5,358 nt of DNA from a virus (taxonomy: Duplodnaviria; Heunggongvirae; Uroviricota; Caudoviricetes), in the IMG/VR virus record IMGVR_UViG_3300000059_000099, positions 1-5,358 of that record; one strand, given 5' to 3'. The position numbers were made by a program, and so were the translations under genes. Shown one piece after another: positions 1,227-5,358 of this stretch. Within the stretch, counting starts at the first letter, position 1; every line of letters begins with the position of its first letter. The notes below the pieces were generated by a model that did no database searches, was not told the DNA's origin, and saw only the letters and a program-made list of their open reading frames with translations.

Positions 1227-1265
1227 CGGTCTTTCCTCGGTATAAGTTAAACGCTGGTCAGGCGC

Positions 1266-2067: not shown

Positions 2068-2481
2068 ATGAGGATGAAAAATTTGATGCTTAGCGACCGT
2101 TTATCTCAAAGACGCAAACAGCTTGGTCTAACCCAACAACAGCTTGCTGATATGGTTGGAAGATCGAGTGTGAGCGTTTTTAAATGGGAAAGCGGACAAA
2201 ATGAACCAAAGGGCCAGAACTTGTTGGCTTTGGCCAATGCACTCAAGTGTTCTGCCACATGGCTGCTTTTTGGTGACGAAGACCAGGCGCCAACTCCGGT
2301 AGACGAATTACCAACAGAGCTGGATTCACGTCAAAAAAGATTGTTAGAGTTATTTGATTCATTACCCGAGTCAGAAAAAGAAAAGCAACTAATTGAATTA
2401 GAAGATAAAGTTGAAAACTTTAATCGTTTATTTGAAGAGTTACTGGTTACCAGAAAGAAACTAACCCCCACCAAAAAATAA
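2068..2481 (+). CDS. dicA: DicA-like HTH (XRE-family) prophage repressor, 137 aa from the first ATG; alternative starts at 2074 and 2086
   Basis: Translation ...MKNLMLSDRLSQRRKQLGLTQQQLADMVGRSSVSVFKWESGQNEPKGQNLLALANALKCSATWLLFGDEDQAPTP... closely parallels the DicA sequence recalled from Qin (KNLTIGERIRYRRKNL..., SPTWILFGDEDKQPTP, LPESE, KNFNKLFEELL). No good Shine-Dalgarno before 2068, so the message may be leaderless or start at 2074/2086. Confidence 0.85.
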   Translation: MRMKNLMLSDRLSQRRKQLGLTQQQLADMVGRSSVSVFKWESGQNEPKGQNLLALANALKCSATWLLFGDEDQAPTPVDELPTELDSRQKRLLELFDSLPESEKEKQLIELEDKVENFNRLFEELLVTRKKLTPTKK

Positions 2482-2484
2482 AAT

Positions 2485-2519
2485 AAAGGCAATGTTTTCA
2501 ATGCATTGCCTTTATTTTT
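2485..2519. terminator. Rho-independent terminator after the repressor gene, probably bidirectional
   Basis: Stem AAAGGCAATG (2485-2494) pairs with CATTGCCTTT (2504-2513) around a 9-nt loop, followed by TATTTTTA. The A-rich 5' flank (AAAAAATAAAAT) gives a U-tract on the opposite strand. Confidence 0.7.
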
Positions 2520-2530
2520 ACCCCAAATAC

Positions 2531-2580
2531 TAACTTTTGTTATAAAACATCTTGCACATAAAATTACCTTTAGTTATATT
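2531..2580 (+). promoter_or_regulatory. Second operator copy (TAACTTTTGTTA, 2531-2542) next to a near-consensus sigma70 promoter firing rightward (-35 TTGCAC 2552-2557, 17-nt spacer, -10 TATATT 2575-2580): a pL/OL analogue
   Basis: The 12-mer is identical to the operator at 2012-2023. Hexamers and spacing were read directly. Placement just beyond the repressor terminator mirrors lambda OL/pL. Confidence 0.45.
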
Positions 2581-2914
2581 CATTCCATCAACAACGCTTA
2601 CCCAGCGGCAGTTGTTCAGAAACACGTTCTGACAGCCGGAAAGACGGCACCAAATTTTGCGCGTCGGCGCCAACACGGTGACAGAGGGAAAGACTTCACC
2701 GGCATATGGCACATGTGTCGAAGCGGTCTGGATGGAAGCGGAGCCTTAACGCGTTGTCTCCATAGCAGGTAGCCGGAATGTGCAAGCCACAGCCAGGTAT
2801 GAGCGATTGATTCACCATCAAGGCGATACGGTGTGACCACCAGGGAAGAGTCCTGGCTACAACACGAGAGCGCACTTCATCGACTCAACTTTGAGCTTTG
2901 TCGTTAAATTTTGA

Positions 2915-3055
2915 AATGGCGGAGTGCGCTCCCGGTTGTGGTGAACAGGTGTTTAACGGGAACTCCCTGCCCGTTACCCGGTTCGATTCCGGGCGCCCAT
3001 CATCAATTTGCTGTGTTTAGTCTTTGCCCAGTCCGCACGATGGGCCATTTTTTCA
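2915..3055 (+). ncRNA. Candidate small structured RNA (speculative): two adjacent hairpins, one a tRNA-like T-arm, closed by an intrinsic-terminator-like hairpin
   Basis: Hairpin AACGGG-(9 nt)-CCCGTT at 2955-2975. Hairpin CCCGG-TTCGATT-CCGGG at 2977-2993, where the loop matches the tRNA T-loop pattern (GGTTCGATTCC). Downstream stem GCCCA / TGGGC with T6 at 3026-3053. Only a weak promoter upstream (TCGACT, 18 nt, TAAATT, about 2881-2910). No ORF support. Confidence 0.2.
3025..3054 (+). terminator. Candidate intrinsic terminator inside the non-coding stretch
   Basis: GCCCA (3026-3030) pairs with TGGGC (3041-3045) around a 10-nt loop, followed by CCATTTTTTC (T6 at 3048-3053). The stem is short but GC-rich. 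Confidence 0.35.
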
Positions 3056-3146
3056 CACAGCCAGGTTTTATCGCTGTGCCTGAGTCCCCAACAGGAGAGG
3101 CCAAACCCGCAGCGTGACACCAGGGAAAGACCGGAGGAAGTACCAC

Positions 3147-3214
3147 GCCTGACCAGCGTTGACCATGAGCCTGACCAGCTCAAAACAGGAAAGACCAGCC
3201 CGGGCCTGACCAGC
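3147..3214. repeat. Short direct-repeat cluster: GCCTGACCAGC three times (3147, 3169, 3204) with extra GACCA(G/T) copies, phased about 11 bp apart
   Basis: Direct reading of gcctgaccagc-gttgaccatga-gcctgaccagc-tcaaaacaggaaagaccagcc-cgg-gcctgaccagc. GACCA cores at about 3151, 3162, 3173, 3194 and 3208. Confidence 0.6.
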
Positions 3215-3334
3215 CCTGTACGGTCGTAATGGAAACATAACGACGCCGGAAACGTAACCGGCACCCTTTAGATAGCAAAAGACCCGCACAAGGCGGGCCA
3301 GTTACCCCGAACGGCGACCAAACCATTCGGATTT

Positions 3335-3358
3335 ATCACAAGTGACCAAACTTGTGAT
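3335..3358. other. Perfect 9-bp inverted repeat ATCACAAGT-GACCAA-ACTTGTGAT (operator-like palindrome or RNA hairpin), directly upstream of a degenerate gene-start cassette
   Basis: Positions 3335-3343 pair perfectly with 3350-3358. No U-tract follows, so it is not a canonical terminator. Confidence 0.5.
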
Positions 3359-3442
3359 GAGGAAAGACCAACGACACTGACGCTATGGAAGCTGATCAAT
3401 ATTCGCTGATCGGCTCTGAGTATACATTACCAAGGAGTCGCT

Positions 3443-3763
3443 ATGGAAGCGCGCACCATCCCAGTAACACTCTTTATTCATTATGCAACTTCAACTTTCA
3501 GCCACGAAAAGCTGCTTGTTGCGACGGTTGATATGTCAAAAAATTTTCCAGACAGGTACATCCTTCTGGAAAGCCGCGAAATTGAAATTACCGTCAACCA
3601 GCCCCAGCCAATCGACATCATCGGTTTACAGGTCGAGCAGCTGCATGAGCAAAAACAGAAAACAGCCGCCGACGCCCAACAGCGTATTGCTGCTATCGAT
3701 GACGAAATCCAGCAGTTACTTTGCATCGAATACACGCCAGATACCGATGAAATCCCCTACTAA
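3443..3763 (+). CDS. Hypothetical 106-aa acidic protein, first gene after the non-coding stretch
   Basis: ORF in the track (MEARTIPVTLFIHYATSTFSHEKLLVATVDMSKNFPDRYILLESREIEITVNQ...). Strong AAGGAG Shine-Dalgarno 5-6 nt before the ATG; ends 30 nt before the next gene on the same strand. No family recognised. Confidence 0.6.
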   Translation: MEARTIPVTLFIHYATSTFSHEKLLVATVDMSKNFPDRYILLESREIEITVNQPQPIDIIGLQVEQLHEQKQKTAADAQQRIAAIDDEIQQLLCIEYTPDTDEIPY

Positions 3764-3793: not shown

Positions 3794-5358
3794 ATGACCA
3801 TTTTTAACGGCTTGTTAGAAGCGAAAAAAGGCGCGCTCAAAAACGGTGCGATCCCGGCGCTGGCCATCGCCATCGACGCCCCTAACAAAAAAGTTGCCGA
3901 GAACATCATCATCGGCAAATTGTGGGAAGCCTACCCTGACCACGGCGACAACTATTTCAAACCTAAAATCTGGGAAGATGCCCCGGGCCAACCGCGCCCT
4001 GGCGTCGGTGAGTTTGATGAGACGTTTGCCACAGAACACAGTTTTGATGGCGAAAAATGGGTAGTTAACACCCCCGCTGATTCAGATAGCGGTTCAGCAG
4101 ATATCGCACAGGTTAACGACCTGATGAAACTGCCTGCTCGTGAACGCTTCGCCGCCGTCCTGCTGTTCAGCCACGACGCCAACGAAGTCGACAGTGAATT
4201 GCTTGCGCAGACGCGTGAATACTTGGAGATGCTCGACAACAGTGATACTAACAGTGAGGATGAGGTTGACGCGTTTAACCGCATCGTCCTCGATGCCATG
4301 GTAGCGTGTAAGCCCATTGAGTACATGCATATTGCTGGATTGAATAATCTGGTACATGCAATTTTGGCAAGTTGCGATACCCAGGAACAAAACCCGACCA
4401 GTTGGACTATCTCCAAATTTATAAAAAAATGGGTAGAGAATCCCGGTAAACGCGATGAAATGCTGCCGGAGGTAAAACCACAAACAGCATCCGCACGTCC
4501 TTACCAACAGACTCACGCCACACTGGATCGTGAAATTGCCTGCGCCCTGTTACCTGTTGCCCCGGAAAAAATCACCCCCAGCATCCTGAAAGCGGCAGAC
4601 GAAATAATCAGTCAGGACAGGGAAGATTTTAAACGCTGGTCAATGGCCTTGCGCACAACGGATCAGATCCTTGCCTATGACCGCGCATCAGTATTCGGTG
4701 TTATTCAGAGCGCCCCCGCAAAAGACACGTACCACTTCCCACAATCCCTGCGCAGTCACATCGACAACTGGCTGCAAGCTAACGGGCAGCGTGATGCAAA
4801 TGCTGTTGAAGAGAAGCCAAAGGAAGCAGCACCAAAGGATGATGTAAAAGTCACCAACCACGGCGGCGGACGATTCTCAATTGATGGGATGATGTCAGAA
4901 ACACCCTCAAATCAGGGCGAAAAAAGCGAAGCAGCAAATGCTGGAGAACGTAGTTTGCAGCAGTTGCGTGAGCAGTTTGTCACGCCTCGCCATGTGTATG
5001 ACGTACCTGAAAATAACGCCGTATCACAGAGGGAACCTGCAGCTATTACCCCGGCAGAAGAGACTCCTCCACAAGAACAACTTAGCGAGCAGGTAAAGGA
5101 TCTGGTGCAGAACGTTGACGCGCTGGTTGAGCGGATCCATACCGAAGAGTACAAGCGGCAGAATGCAATCTCAGCTATCGAAACGGAGTTAAAGGACTCC
5201 GACGACACGGATAATCTGGCATTGTGGAAGAACATATTCAAAACCGATGAGCGCTTCACCAGTGCTTTCTCTCAGAATGGCGGCGGCACATCCATCAACG
5301 GCACTTATATAGCGATGAAAGCGACTCGCGAATTTGGGCCGTTTGGTATTGGCTGGGG
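3794..5358 (+). CDS. Large hypothetical protein, N-terminal 521 codons (continues past window end); C-terminal part in the window ends with ...INGTYIAMKATREFGPFGIGW, loosely reminiscent of the Rad52/Sak-type annealing-protein core (uncertain)
   Basis: Hand translation from ATG 3794 (MTIFNGLLEAKKGALKNGAIPALAIAIDAPNKK...) runs 521 codons to the window edge without a stop. GAGGAAAGACCA precedes the ATG. Absent from the track, apparently for lack of an in-window stop. The antisense track ORFs 3952..4416, 4094..4516 and 4912..5259 lie wholly inside it. Confidence 0.7.
   Translation, partial: MTIFNGLLEAKKGALKNGAIPALAIAIDAPNKKVAENIIIGKLWEAYPDHGDNYFKPKIWEDAPGQPRPGVGEFDETFATEHSFDGEKWVVNTPADSDSGSADIAQVNDLMKLPARERFAAVLLFSHDANEVDSELLAQTREYLEMLDNSDTNSEDEVDAFNRIVLDAMVACKPIEYMHIAGLNNLVHAILASCDTQEQNPTSWTISKFIKKWVENPGKRDEMLPEVKPQTASARPYQQTHATLDREIACALLPVAPEKITPSILKAADEIISQDREDFKRWSMALRTTDQILAYDRASVFGVIQSAPAKDTYHFPQSLRSHIDNWLQANGQRDANAVEEKPKEAAPKDDVKVTNHGGGRFSIDGMMSETPSNQGEKSEAANAGERSLQQLREQFVTPRHVYDVPENNAVSQREPAAITPAEETPPQEQLSEQVKDLVQNVDALVERIHTEEYKRQNAISAIETELKDSDDTDNLALWKNIFKTDERFTSAFSQNGGGTSINGTYIAMKATREFGPFGIGW

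What the first reader, a model, noticed from the sequence alone, without database searches (positions are those of the whole stretch)
2915..3055. tRNA-like T-arm hairpin with a downstream terminator: candidate small RNA or tRNA-derived relic
CCCGG-TTCGATT-CCGGG (2977-2993) is a 5-bp stem with a 7-nt loop matching the tRNA T-loop, preceded by a second hairpin and followed about 30 nt later by a terminator-like stem with T6. I could not fold a full cloverleaf: there is no 5' acceptor partner for CGCCCAT and no CCA. It is therefore not a canonical tRNA gene, and its 3' end matches none of the E. coli tRNAs I can recall. It may be a tRNA-like module of an sRNA, a relic of a tRNA-targeted integration site, or a degenerate phage tRNA.
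Basis: seen in the sequence. Interest (0 to 1): 0.55.

Follow-up and report, generated by a model that had tools for sequence, protein, structure and literature searches.

The report
Prophage copy of RprA small-RNA tail
The "tRNA-like" hairpin and terminator are not a tRNA or an att relic: they lie in the untranslated leader of a prophage early operon, and the last 50 bases copy the active 3' part of the host regulatory RNA RprA, a cassette found in many phages and apparently not yet described.

Summary
There is a 5-bp/7-nt T-loop hairpin (2977-2993), a 7-bp hairpin directly before it (2954-2976), and a terminator (3026-3053). Both hairpins covary across phage variants.

It is not a tRNA. ARAGORN and Rfam find none. 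The supposed 5' acceptor/D-arm segment (2921-2939) is instead the 3' strand of a long covarying helix with 2859-2878. No E. coli tRNA matches the region, so an att relic is not supported.

The key result is that 3008-3057 is homologous to RprA nt 61-108 (84% identity). That is the processed form, RprA60-105, published as sufficient to repress csgD. The same seed-plus-terminator cassette occurs in at least 119 viral contigs with many different 5' parts. It almost always lies just downstream of a cI-type repressor gene and before the first early-left gene. Its seed is antisense to the csgD 5'UTR: 15 perfect bp in most phages, one mismatch here.

The element sits about 430 nt into an ORF-free leader of about 850 nt, behind an operator-controlled PL-like promoter.

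Best reading: a PL-leader-derived, RprA-mimicking small RNA, with the T-loop hairpin as a structural or processing module. Expression, Hfq binding and targets are inferred, not shown.

The parts
2068..2481 (+). cI-type repressor gene (HTH_3), upstream neighbour
   Evidence: ORF list. Pfam HTH_3, 1.4e-14. Annotated as a helix-turn-helix protein in RefSeq genomes.
2480..2518 (.). Terminator of the repressor gene: perfect 15-bp inverted repeat flanked by A and T runs
   Evidence: the repeat finder I1/I2. Weak Rfam STnc240-like hit that covers only this terminator.
2525..2543 (+). OL-type operator copy (AAATACTAAC-TTTT-GTTAT; core TAACTTTTGTTA at 2531-2542)
   Evidence: The same 12-mer occurs in the cro-cI intergenic region at 2012-2023, and inverted at 2036-2048.
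2537..2580 (+). PL-like promoter region: two overlapping sigma-70-like sites. The transcript probably starts near 2587-2590 at the conserved CAUCAACAACGC.
   Evidence: These are the only promoter-like sites in 2300-3600. Related phages have different promoter and operator sequences followed by the same CATCAACA(A/G)CG start.
2859..2878 (+). 5' strand of long helix P1
   Evidence: Pairs with 2921-2939. 92% of cells are paired and 6 pairs are compensatory across 7 phage types.
2921..2939 (+). 3' strand of helix P1. This is the segment that a relaxed ARAGORN run uses as acceptor 5' strand and D-arm.
2954..2976 (+). Hairpin P2: 7-bp stem, loop AACUCCCUG with conserved UCCCUG
   Evidence: Covariation in alignment A2.
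2977..2993 (+). Hairpin P3, the T-arm-like hairpin: CCCGG/CCGGG stem, loop UUCGAUU
   Evidence: Compensatory C-G to U-A changes at two stem positions, with a U-G intermediate; the loop is invariant.
2994..3009 (+). Single-stranded A/U-rich linker CGCCCAUCAUCAAUUU; candidate RNase E processing site (CAA|UUU)
   Evidence: Sequence. The RprA homology starts here, at the position of RprA's own processing site (PMC9262595). Cleavage is inferred.
3008..3057 (+). RprA 3'-domain homolog (corresponds to RprA nt 61-108)
   Evidence: 84% identity to rprA in about 5,000 E. coli genomes, E=8e-5. Alignment. Rfam RprA 37.4 bits, below the gathering score of 70.
3010..3025 (+). Seed GCUGUGUUUAGUCUUU (most phages and RprA have GCUGUGUGUAGUCUUU)
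   Evidence: Antisense to csgD 5'UTR -99..-83.
3026..3053 (+). Intrinsic terminator: stem GCCCA/UGGGC, then CA, then U6
   Evidence: Hairpin energy is -8.0 kcal/mol, against -12.5 to -15 in RprA and other phage copies.
3054..3061 (+). CACACAGC, complementary to the seed's GCUGUGUG. It could pair with the seed only in read-through transcripts.
   Evidence: Sequence. An ACACAG-type motif recurs after the U-tract in the other leader-type phage copies.
3443..3763 (+). First gene of the early-left operon (106 aa, no Pfam hit); marks the end of the leader
   Evidence: Homologous first genes (MEAL.IPVKLY...) follow the module in other phages.

Best explanation
The two hairpins and the terminator are consecutive modules of one non-coding transcript: the ORF-free leader of about 850 nt of the prophage's early-left (PL) operon. 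The last ~50 nt before and through the U-tract (3008-3057) are a paralog of the 3' domain of the host Hfq-dependent sRNA RprA. That domain is the processed form (RprAproc, RprA60-105), which is active on its own.

Proposed mechanism:
- When the cI-type repressor leaves the operator at 2525-2543 (induction or infection), PL fires.
- Part of the polymerases stop at the RprA-like terminator.
- RNase E cuts in the A/U-rich linker (about 3000-3009), just 3' of the stable P2-P3 hairpin stack.
- This releases a 47-50-nt RNA with an Hfq-type 3' end and the seed UUUGCUGUGUUUAGUCUUU.
- The RNA acts in trans like the RprA 3' domain. Its best-supported target is site I of the csgD leader, the curli/biofilm master regulator.

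The T-loop hairpin is not part of a tRNA. It is a structural module occupying the place of RprA stem-loop 2, and probably serves as a folding, stability or processing boundary.

Shown here: the homology, the covarying helices, the conserved position after the repressor gene, the operator and promoter, and the csgD complementarity. Inferred: transcription, termination efficiency, processing, Hfq binding and regulation.
For: - RprA homology: 50 nt at 84% identity, E=8e-5 against 28 Gb; alignment; Rfam full-length RprA alignment at 37.4 bits.
- The homology begins at RprA nt 61. This is the start of the 47-nt processed form that coexists with full-length RprA and regulates narP (PMC9262595). It is also the start of RprA60-105, 'the highly conserved region', which is sufficient to down-regulate csgD (PMC3465796).
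- The seed-plus-terminator cassette GCTGTGTNTAGTCTTTGCCC occurs in at least 119 IMG/VR contigs, in 84 distinct contexts, none of them the chromosomal rprA context. Terminator stems differ by compensating changes.
- Loci fetched independently of the seed, through the 5' motif or the T-arm pattern, still carry UUGCUGUGUGUAGUCUU.
- Position is conserved. The module lies downstream of a repressor and upstream of early genes, on the same strand, in phage Flotzy, vB_EcoM-606R2 and the 20 sampled loci. Six of seven upstream ORFs tested are HTH_3/Peptidase_S24/CI repressors.
- There is an operator repeat and the only promoter-like sites upstream.
- The csgD 5'UTR contains a perfect 15-bp complement to the RprA/phage seed. 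The window seed pairs at -20.8 kcal/mol; 1.6% of shuffles do as well.
- P2, P3 and P1 are supported by covariation.
- Sister phages (type A') keep P1-P3 but lack the cassette, so the cassette is an accessory insert rather than an essential leader part.
Against: - There are no expression data: no TSS, 3' end, Hfq binding or target test.
- PL should be repressed in a lysogen, and no internal promoter was found. The RNA would then be made only on induction or infection.
- This particular copy looks weaker than its relatives. It has a G-to-U change in the seed (one mismatch to csgD), a terminator hairpin of only -8.0 kcal/mol, and a U-tract separated from the stem by CA.
- It is 100% identical in 448 genomes, so selection on this copy cannot be read from E. 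coli data.
- The seed set was ascertained by the seed pattern itself.
- The Rfam RprA score is below the gathering threshold.
- The two-hairpin module also exists without the cassette, so its role need not be tied to the sRNA.
Confidence: 0.55

Rival explanations
1. The element acts only in cis. The RprA-like module is a tL-type terminator or attenuator that gates expression of the early-left operon, and the hairpins are leader structure. No trans-acting RNA is involved.
For: It lies in the PL leader, before the first early gene, in many phages. A complementary CACACAGC follows the U-tract and could reshape read-through RNA. A terminator in a leader is classic lambdoid logic (established knowledge of lambda tL1/tR1).
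Against: A terminator needs no conserved 16-20-nt single-stranded sequence upstream. Yet that sequence is invariant while stems and loops vary, and it matches RprA and the csgD leader. Type A' phages with the same leader and the same downstream genes lack the module altogether. The two roles are not mutually exclusive.
Confidence: 0.2
2. The cassette family is functional, but the copy in this prophage type is a decaying, inactive member.
For: The seed has a G-to-U substitution unique to this type. It has the weakest terminator of those compared, and its U-tract is offset by CA. One contig carries a further seed mutation (UAGCCUUUG, L123) and another a 1-nt deletion in the T-stem (L143).
Against: 448 of 5,426 complete E. 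coli genomes hold an identical copy. The seed still pairs with csgD better than 98% of shuffles. A U6 tail and an upstream U-rich stretch remain.
Confidence: 0.12
3. The element is a degenerate phage tRNA gene, or a tRNA-derived relic with no present RNA function.
For: The T-arm is canonical, with G53-C61-type closure and a UUCGAUU loop. ARAGORN at 90% thresholds draws a 'tRNA-Val(aac)' at 2924-3001. Rfam tRNA-Sec scores 19.3 bits, E=3.3.
Against: Default ARAGORN finds nothing. There is no Rfam tRNA hit near the gathering score. The acceptor has 2 mismatches, and the acceptor pairing is lost in type B. The acceptor/D-arm nucleotides are the 3' strand of the covarying helix P1. The hairpin before the T-arm has 7 bp and an 8-9-nt loop with no spacer, unlike an anticodon or variable arm. 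A neutral relic would not show compensatory changes.
Confidence: 0.08
4. The element is a relic of a tRNA-targeted integration site (att core).
For: Only the T-arm resemblance. Many integrases do target tRNA 3' halves (established knowledge).
Against: No tRNA in 5,426 E. coli genomes matches 2944-3005. The element lies between the repressor and the early genes, about 5 kb from the integrase and the real attachment end at leuZ. No integrase or direct repeat is nearby. The structure covaries as RNA.
Confidence: 0.02
5. The region encodes a small protein: a 34-codon ORF at 2916-3020, MAECAPGCGEQ...CCV.
For: An ATG-initiated ORF of the same length, ending at the same TAG, exists in types A and B.
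Against: The conserved nucleotides are read in different frames in A and B (TRFDSG against SGSIPD). Natural 1-nt indels break the frame (L143, L148). Type C has no ATG. No Shine-Dalgarno sequence precedes it. RefSeq annotates nothing here.
Confidence: 0.02

Closest known systems
RprA (Rfam RF00034), specifically its processed 3' form RprAproc / RprA60-105
   Same: About 48 nt are homologous. This covers the seed UUGCUGUGU(G/U)UAGUCUUU, the GCCC...GGGC terminator and the U-tail. The homology starts at RprA's processing site. The complementarity to csgD site I is the same (PMC3465796; PMC9262595).
   Different: It lacks RprA stem-loop 1, the UCCCCUGA seed hairpin and the AACGAAUU rpoS-pairing stretch, which are replaced by P1/P2/P3. 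It lies in a prophage PL leader, not at ydiK-ydiL behind an RcsB promoter. It scores below the Rfam gathering threshold (37.4 against 70). It has one seed substitution and a weaker terminator.
DicF (Qin prophage)
   Same: An sRNA embedded in the long transcript that starts next to the immunity repressor (the dicA-type arrangement), upstream of early or kil-type genes. It is made by processing and termination and is silent while the repressor is active (established knowledge; PMC5069750 appeared but was not read).
   Different: No sequence similarity. DicF has a different seed and targets (ftsZ and others). Rfam does not call DicF here.
StxS of Shiga-toxin phages
   Same: A phage sRNA produced by termination in the leader of an operon that is otherwise read through.
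   Different: StxS comes from the late PR' leader and is made in lysogens. This element lies in the early-left leader behind an operator. The sequences are unrelated.
3'ETS-leuZ and other tRNA-linked sRNAs
   Same: A T-arm-containing structured unit is followed by a short Hfq-type RNA ending at a terminator, with RNase E cleavage proposed between them (from my own knowledge).
   Different: In 3'ETS-leuZ the upstream unit is a real tRNA. Here only a T-loop hairpin exists, and the rest is not a cloverleaf.
tRNA T-arm / T-loop motif (also found in the tmRNA tRNA-like domain, RNase P RNA and riboswitches)
   Same: A 5-bp stem closed by G-C, and a 7-nt loop UUCGAUU with U at position 1 and A at position 5. 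The loop is invariant while the stem covaries.
   Different: There is no acceptor stem, no CCA, and no D-arm partner demonstrated. ARAGORN finds no tmRNA.

Membership tests
tRNA gene | Detected by ARAGORN, or by the Rfam tRNA models at their thresholds | tested here: not met
   ARAGORN default finds 0 genes. The best Rfam hit in the tRNA clan is tRNA-Sec at 19.3 bits, against a gathering score of 47, E=3.3. RefSeq/PGAP annotates nothing here in 448 genomes.
tRNA gene | 7-bp acceptor stem joining the 5' and 3' ends | tested here: not met
   The relaxed ARAGORN model has 2 mismatches and a G-U. In type B the 3' strand changes to CACCCAA and the pairing is lost. The 5' strand belongs to helix P1, which has 6 compensatory pairs.
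tRNA gene | Anticodon arm (5 bp, 7-nt loop) and a variable region before the T-arm | tested here: not met
   The covarying hairpin has 7 bp and an 8-9-nt loop, and abuts the T-like stem with no spacer.
tRNA gene | T-arm with a T-loop | tested here: met
   CCCGG-UUCGAUU-CCGGG at 2977-2993, with covariation.
tRNA gene | Encoded 3' CCA after the discriminator (usual in E. coli and its phages) | tested here: not met
   The sequence after the T-stem is CGCCCAUCAUCAAUU.
RprA (RF00034) | Reaches the Rfam gathering score over the full model | tested here: not met
   37.4 bits against 70, E=0.059.
RprA (RF00034) | Conserved 3' domain (nt 60-105): seed, terminator and U-tail | tested here: met
   84% identity over 50 nt to rprA in about 5,000 genomes; alignment.
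RprA (RF00034) | 5' stem-loop, the UCCCCUGA seed hairpin and the rpoS-pairing AACGAAUU | tested here: not met
   The alignment shows no similarity 5' of nt 61. The Rfam alignment places P2 and P3 where SL1 and SL2 sit, with non-matching sequence.
RprA (RF00034) | Chromosomal ydiK-rprA-ydiL locus | tested here: not met
   The element is in a prophage integrated next to leuZ.
Hfq-dependent sRNA (3' Hfq-binding module) | Rho-independent terminator hairpin, a U-tail of at least 6, and a U-rich stretch just upstream | tested here: met
   Stem 3026-3045, U6 at 3048-3053, upstream UUUAGUCUUU. The CA between stem and U-tract, and the -8 kcal/mol stem, are suboptimal.
Hfq-dependent sRNA (3' Hfq-binding module) | Physical binding to Hfq and Hfq-dependent regulation | not testable with these tools
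   Needs co-IP, RIL-seq or a reporter assay.
tRNA-type att site relic | Identity to the 3' part of a host tRNA, and location at a mobile-element boundary | tested here: not met
   No tRNA match at E<=10. The element is internal to the prophage, about 5 kb from int and leuZ.
HK022-type put antiterminator RNA | Two-stem RNA at the start of the PL transcript, with the put sequence signature | tested here: inconclusive
   No sequence similarity to the HK022 immunity region, except a 16-mer that lies inside an HK022 coding sequence. The published put features (A3GACG7 and others) were not seen. Structure-level similarity was not tested.

The most novel reading that the evidence does not exclude
Temperate phages of Enterobacteriaceae, and apparently some virulent Erwinia phages, carry a portable 'RprA 3'-domain' cassette. 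In the temperate phages it is inserted just downstream of the repressor gene. With it they mimic a core host sRNA and reach into its regulon: csgD/curli and biofilm, dgcM, narP and others. In one Escherichia lineage the cassette is fused to a T-loop-bearing two-hairpin module inside a large, modular, structured PL-leader RNA whose other repeated elements (GGAAAGAC, GCCUGACCAGC) suggest further RNA-level functions.
Probability: 0.4. Interest if true: 0.75.

Novelty: new variant of a known kind. Interest (0 to 1): 0.6.

Why it matters
Phage-encoded sRNAs such as DicF, StxS, AgvB/AsxR and PreS are known, but each has its own sequence. Here a phage element is a recognisable paralog of the active half of a core host sRNA. 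The same cassette recurs at a fixed position, after the repressor gene, in many unrelated phages.

If it is functional, phages would switch off the curli/biofilm master regulator csgD, and other targets of the RprA 3' domain, on induction or infection. It would also give a natural set of RprA 3'-domain variants for dissecting what that domain does, which is still unclear for narP (PMC9262595).

About 8% of complete E. coli genomes carry this copy, unannotated. These include the ST131-type strain SK1144 and many human isolates.

The case also shows that a perfect T-arm is not evidence of a tRNA. Here it is one hairpin of a larger covarying leader RNA.

Tried and rejected
- **Full tRNA or tmRNA.** ARAGORN default finds nothing. 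The relaxed run gives a poor cloverleaf, which helix P1 contradicts.
- **att relic.** BLAST of 2944-3005 against all complete E. coli genomes finds only the element itself.
- **Known Rfam family for the phage copies.** 12 loci scanned at gathering thresholds gave only one unrelated tRNA.
- **Match in cultured-phage genomes.** Window 2880-3070 gives no match in 50,697 phage records.
- **put-like antiterminator.** There is no similarity to HK022. The one 16-mer match lies in an HK022 coding sequence.
- **More distant two-hairpin modules.** Covariance model R1 found only types A, A' and B in 150 loci. The genome and metagenome pattern scans added only the same types plus unrelated sequences. The looser viral scan mostly hit real tRNAs, but it did yield L195 and L207.
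- **Internal promoter for a short RNA starting near 2917.** The scan found none. A conserved GTTAAAT lacks a convincing -35.
- **Small ORF.** Rejected.
- **Phage-internal targets of the seed.** Nothing of 9 nt or more, apart from a chance-level 10-mer in fliZ.
- **Literature on phage RprA-like RNAs.** Five searches found none. A sequence-string search found only RprA itself. The PNAS 2015 RprA/ricI paper is not held, so statements about ricI were left out.

Full report
**1. Where the window lies**

The window matches a lambdoid/Rac-like prophage integrated beside the glyW-cysT-leuZ tRNA genes of E. coli. The best overall match is 99.3%. Annotated examples are SK1144 and Z0117EC0036.

The gene order is: YdaT-like and Cro-like genes on the minus strand, then a cI-type HTH repressor on the plus strand (2068-2481; Pfam HTH_3). 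A stretch of about 960 nt with no annotated gene follows. Then comes a 106-aa gene (3443-3763) and the rest of the early-left genes, running to the integrase.

The finding (2915-3055) lies in that unannotated stretch. The 163 nt around it are 100% identical in 448 of 5,426 complete E. coli genomes. Nothing is annotated there.

**2. The observation**

- the T-like hairpin CCCGG-UUCGAUU-CCGGG at 2977-2993;
- a preceding hairpin, refined here to 2954-2976 (7 bp, loop AACUCCCUG), which abuts the T-like stem;
- a terminator, with stem 3026-3045 and U6 at 3048-3053.

GGTTCGANTCC is expected 0.01 times in a window of this composition.

Five variants came from different phages: types A, A' and B, plus L195 and L207. 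In them all 12 base pairs of the two hairpins are kept and 5 show changes on both sides. Slid controls pair 32-55%. The loop UUCGAYU never changes. These are selected RNA hairpins.

**3. It is not a tRNA and not an att relic**

ARAGORN finds no tRNA or tmRNA. Rfam gives only tRNA-Sec at 19.3 bits, E=3.3.

At 90% thresholds ARAGORN draws a 'tRNA-Val(aac)' at 2924-3001. It has two acceptor mismatches and an anticodon stem with two Watson-Crick pairs.

The nucleotides it uses as acceptor 5' strand and D-arm (2921-2939) instead pair with 2859-2878, forming a 19-bp helix (P1). Across seven phage types P1 is 92% paired, with six compensatory pairs; slid controls pair 30-53%. In type B the would-be acceptor 3' strand has changed and no longer pairs.

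A BLAST of 2944-3005 against every complete E. coli genome at E<=10 hits only the element itself and no tRNA. The element lies about 5 kb from the integrase and the true attachment end.

A 34-codon ORF (2916-3020) is not conserved at the protein level.

**4. What the 3' part is**

The Rfam E-value scan aligned 2945-3055 to the whole RprA model at 37.4 bits, below the gathering score of 70.

BLAST shows that window 3008-3057 is 84% identical to the last ~50 nt of chromosomal rprA in essentially every E. coli genome, E=8e-5 against 28 Gb.

The homology starts at RprA nt 61. Published work shows three things about this region:
- The last 47 nt of RprA (RprAproc) coexist with the full-length RNA and repress narP on their own (PMC9262595).
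- RprA60-105, 'the highly conserved region', is sufficient to down-regulate csgD mRNA and protein.
- csgD site I (-119..-84) pairs with RprA nt 60-97, and this was confirmed by compensatory mutations (PMC3465796).

I extracted the MG1655 csgD leader. It contains UACUACACACAGCAGUG at -99..-83, which is a perfect 15-bp complement of UUGCUGUGUGUAGU.
- RprA seed: -24.6 kcal/mol; 0 of 500 shuffles do as well.
- Window seed, which has one G-to-U change: -20.8 kcal/mol; 1.6% of shuffles do as well.

**5. A phage-borne cassette**

These fall into 84 distinct sequence contexts, and none has the chromosomal rprA upstream sequence. Terminator stems differ through compensating changes, and the 5' parts are unrelated to each other.

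Because that set was selected by the seed, I also looked at loci fetched through other motifs: the 5' P1 motif and the T-arm pattern. Their cassettes still carry UUGCUGUGUGUAGUCUU, while the stem changes (GCCC, GGCCCGGG, GGCGGUACC). The most distant ones (L195, L207) keep UGUGUAGUC.

Cultured phages with the cassette include:
- Escherichia phages Flotzy, Eeyore and LLS;
- vB_EcoM-606R2 and its relatives;
- with shorter matches, Cronobacter phiES15 and Erwinia N4-like and jumbo phages.

None of these loci is called by any Rfam family at gathering thresholds. Five literature searches found no description of phage RprA-like RNAs.

**6. Conserved position**

In Flotzy the cassette lies about 500 nt downstream of the CI-like repressor, on the same strand, before the early genes. 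In 606R2 it lies about 1.1 kb downstream of the repressor.

In 20 diverse IMG/VR loci, an ORF with a repressor-like N-terminus lies 0.2-1.7 kb upstream on the same strand, and an early gene starts 80-400 nt downstream. Six of seven such upstream ORFs have HTH_3, Peptidase_S24 or CI domains.

In some types the cassette directly follows the stop codon of a gene downstream of the repressor. There it could be the 3' end of a lysogenic transcript. I did not resolve this.

**7. How this copy is probably made**

The operator core TAACTTTTGTTA of the cro-cI intergenic region (2012-2023, inverted at 2036-2048) recurs at 2531-2542. That position is right after the repressor gene's terminator (2480-2518) and next to the only sigma-70-like sites in 2300-3600, at 2537-2580.

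Related phages with other immunity types have different promoter and operator sequences, followed by the same transcript start CAUCAACA(A/G)CG. I therefore read 2537-2580 as PL, repressed in the lysogen. The finding lies about 330-465 nt into its leader.

Helix P1 requires RNA from 2859 onward, which argues against a short transcript starting near 2917.

The likely products are a ~465-nt terminated leader and, after cleavage in the A/U-rich linker (CAUCAA|UUU), a 47-50-nt RprAproc-like RNA. The linker lies at the position of RprA's own RNase E site. The P2-P3 stack sits where RprA stem-loop 2 sits in the Rfam alignment. RNase E is known to use a neighbouring duplex when it cuts RprA (PMC6202311), so a role for P2-P3 as a processing or stability module is plausible. 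That role is inferred, not tested.

**8. Caveats**

- This copy has the weakest terminator among those compared: -8.0 against -12.5 to -15 kcal/mol, with CA between stem and U-tract. It also has a seed substitution, so it may be a poor or decaying member.
- Type A' phages (E. whittamii, and several viral and metagenome contigs) keep P1-P3 but replace the cassette with other sequence, starting right after CCGGGCGC. The cassette is therefore dispensable for the leader, which is consistent with an accessory trans-acting function. Equally, the T-loop module's role is not necessarily tied to the cassette.
- Nothing here shows transcription, Hfq binding or regulation.

**9. Verdict**

The tRNA and att interpretations are rejected. 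The 'small RNA' interpretation is sharpened to a prophage-borne mimic of the RprA 3' domain embedded in a structured PL leader.

It is a new variant of a known kind: a phage-encoded Hfq-type sRNA that is also a paralog of RprA. It belongs to a sizeable family that, as far as the searchable literature shows, has not been described.

Noticed in passing
window 2638, 2687, 3124, 3188, 3361, 3784 (+) and 1229-1236 (-): GGAAAGAC occurs 7 times against 0.25 expected, always in the sense orientation of the early operons. Two copies are real ribosome-binding contexts (GAGGAAAGACCnATG, before the genes starting at 3795 on the plus strand and 1226 on the minus strand). The five in the ORF-free leader have no start codon after them. 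Several sit in short hairpins whose stems covary between phages (GCCGGAAAGACGGC, GUCUGGAAAGACAGAC, GCGGGAAAGACCGC and others). Possible readings are boxB-like or CsrA-site-like elements, or decoy RBSs. The motif is also nearly complementary to the seed's GUCUUUGCC.
   Followed up: partly
window 3147-3157, 3169-3179, 3204-3214 (+) and about 1251-1262 (-): GCCTGACCAGC is repeated three times in the leader. It occurs again, in the sense orientation, in the rightward operon just upstream of a GAGGAAAGACC ribosome-binding site. A two-part motif present in both early operons is reminiscent of nutL/nutR, but this was not tested.
   Followed up: no
window 2840-2856: The hairpin CCAGG-GAAGAGU-CCUGG just before helix P1 becomes CCCGG-GAAGAGU-CCGGG in type C/D phages. 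This is a compensatory change with an invariant loop that resembles the lambda nutL boxB loop GAAGA.
   Followed up: no
window 2589-3442: The whole PL leader of about 850 nt is ORF-free and is built from modules that recur in different orders and combinations in other phages (P1, the GUUGUGGUGAA box, P2-P3, the RprA cassette, the GAAAGA hairpins). It looks like a mosaic structured RNA of unknown overall function.
   Followed up: partly
L135, L146, L235 (Escherichia whittamii), L246: Type A' phages have a leader identical up to CCGGGCGC. The RprA-like cassette is then replaced by about 90 nt of other sequence (hairpins CUCUGG-UGAAAG-CCAGAG and CCUCUC-GCA-GAGAGG), with no terminator.
   Followed up: partly
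window 3274-3300: The hairpin GACCCGC-ACAAG-GCGGGCC is conserved in types A, A' and B. On the minus strand it reads as a terminator (GGCCCGCCTTGTGCGGGTC TTTT), although no minus-strand gene lies upstream of it. Rfam gives a weak Trp-leader-like hit caused only by this hairpin.
   Followed up: no
Erwinia phages Ea9-2, Frozen, Rexella, Gutmeister, Tellus, and the pEa_SNUABM and Y3 jumbo phages: Virulent Erwinia phages also carry 25-45-nt matches to the RprA seed and terminator. Host-sRNA mimicry may therefore not be limited to temperate phages. Their context was not examined.
   Followed up: no
window 2884-2895; Flotzy L240 4013-4029: A small palindrome (CTCAACTTTGAG here, ATTTCAACATTTGAAAT in Flotzy), followed by TTTGAAATG, is conserved just upstream of otherwise different 5' domains of the cassette-bearing RNAs. 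It could be a protein-binding site or a hairpin; its function is unknown.
   Followed up: no
window 2592-2607 and HK022 29637-29652: The exact 16-mer CAACGCTTACCCAGCG is shared between the start of this PL leader and the coding sequence of an HK022 gene located after cro (an HTH-like stretch). This may be chance or an old recombination trace.
   Followed up: partly
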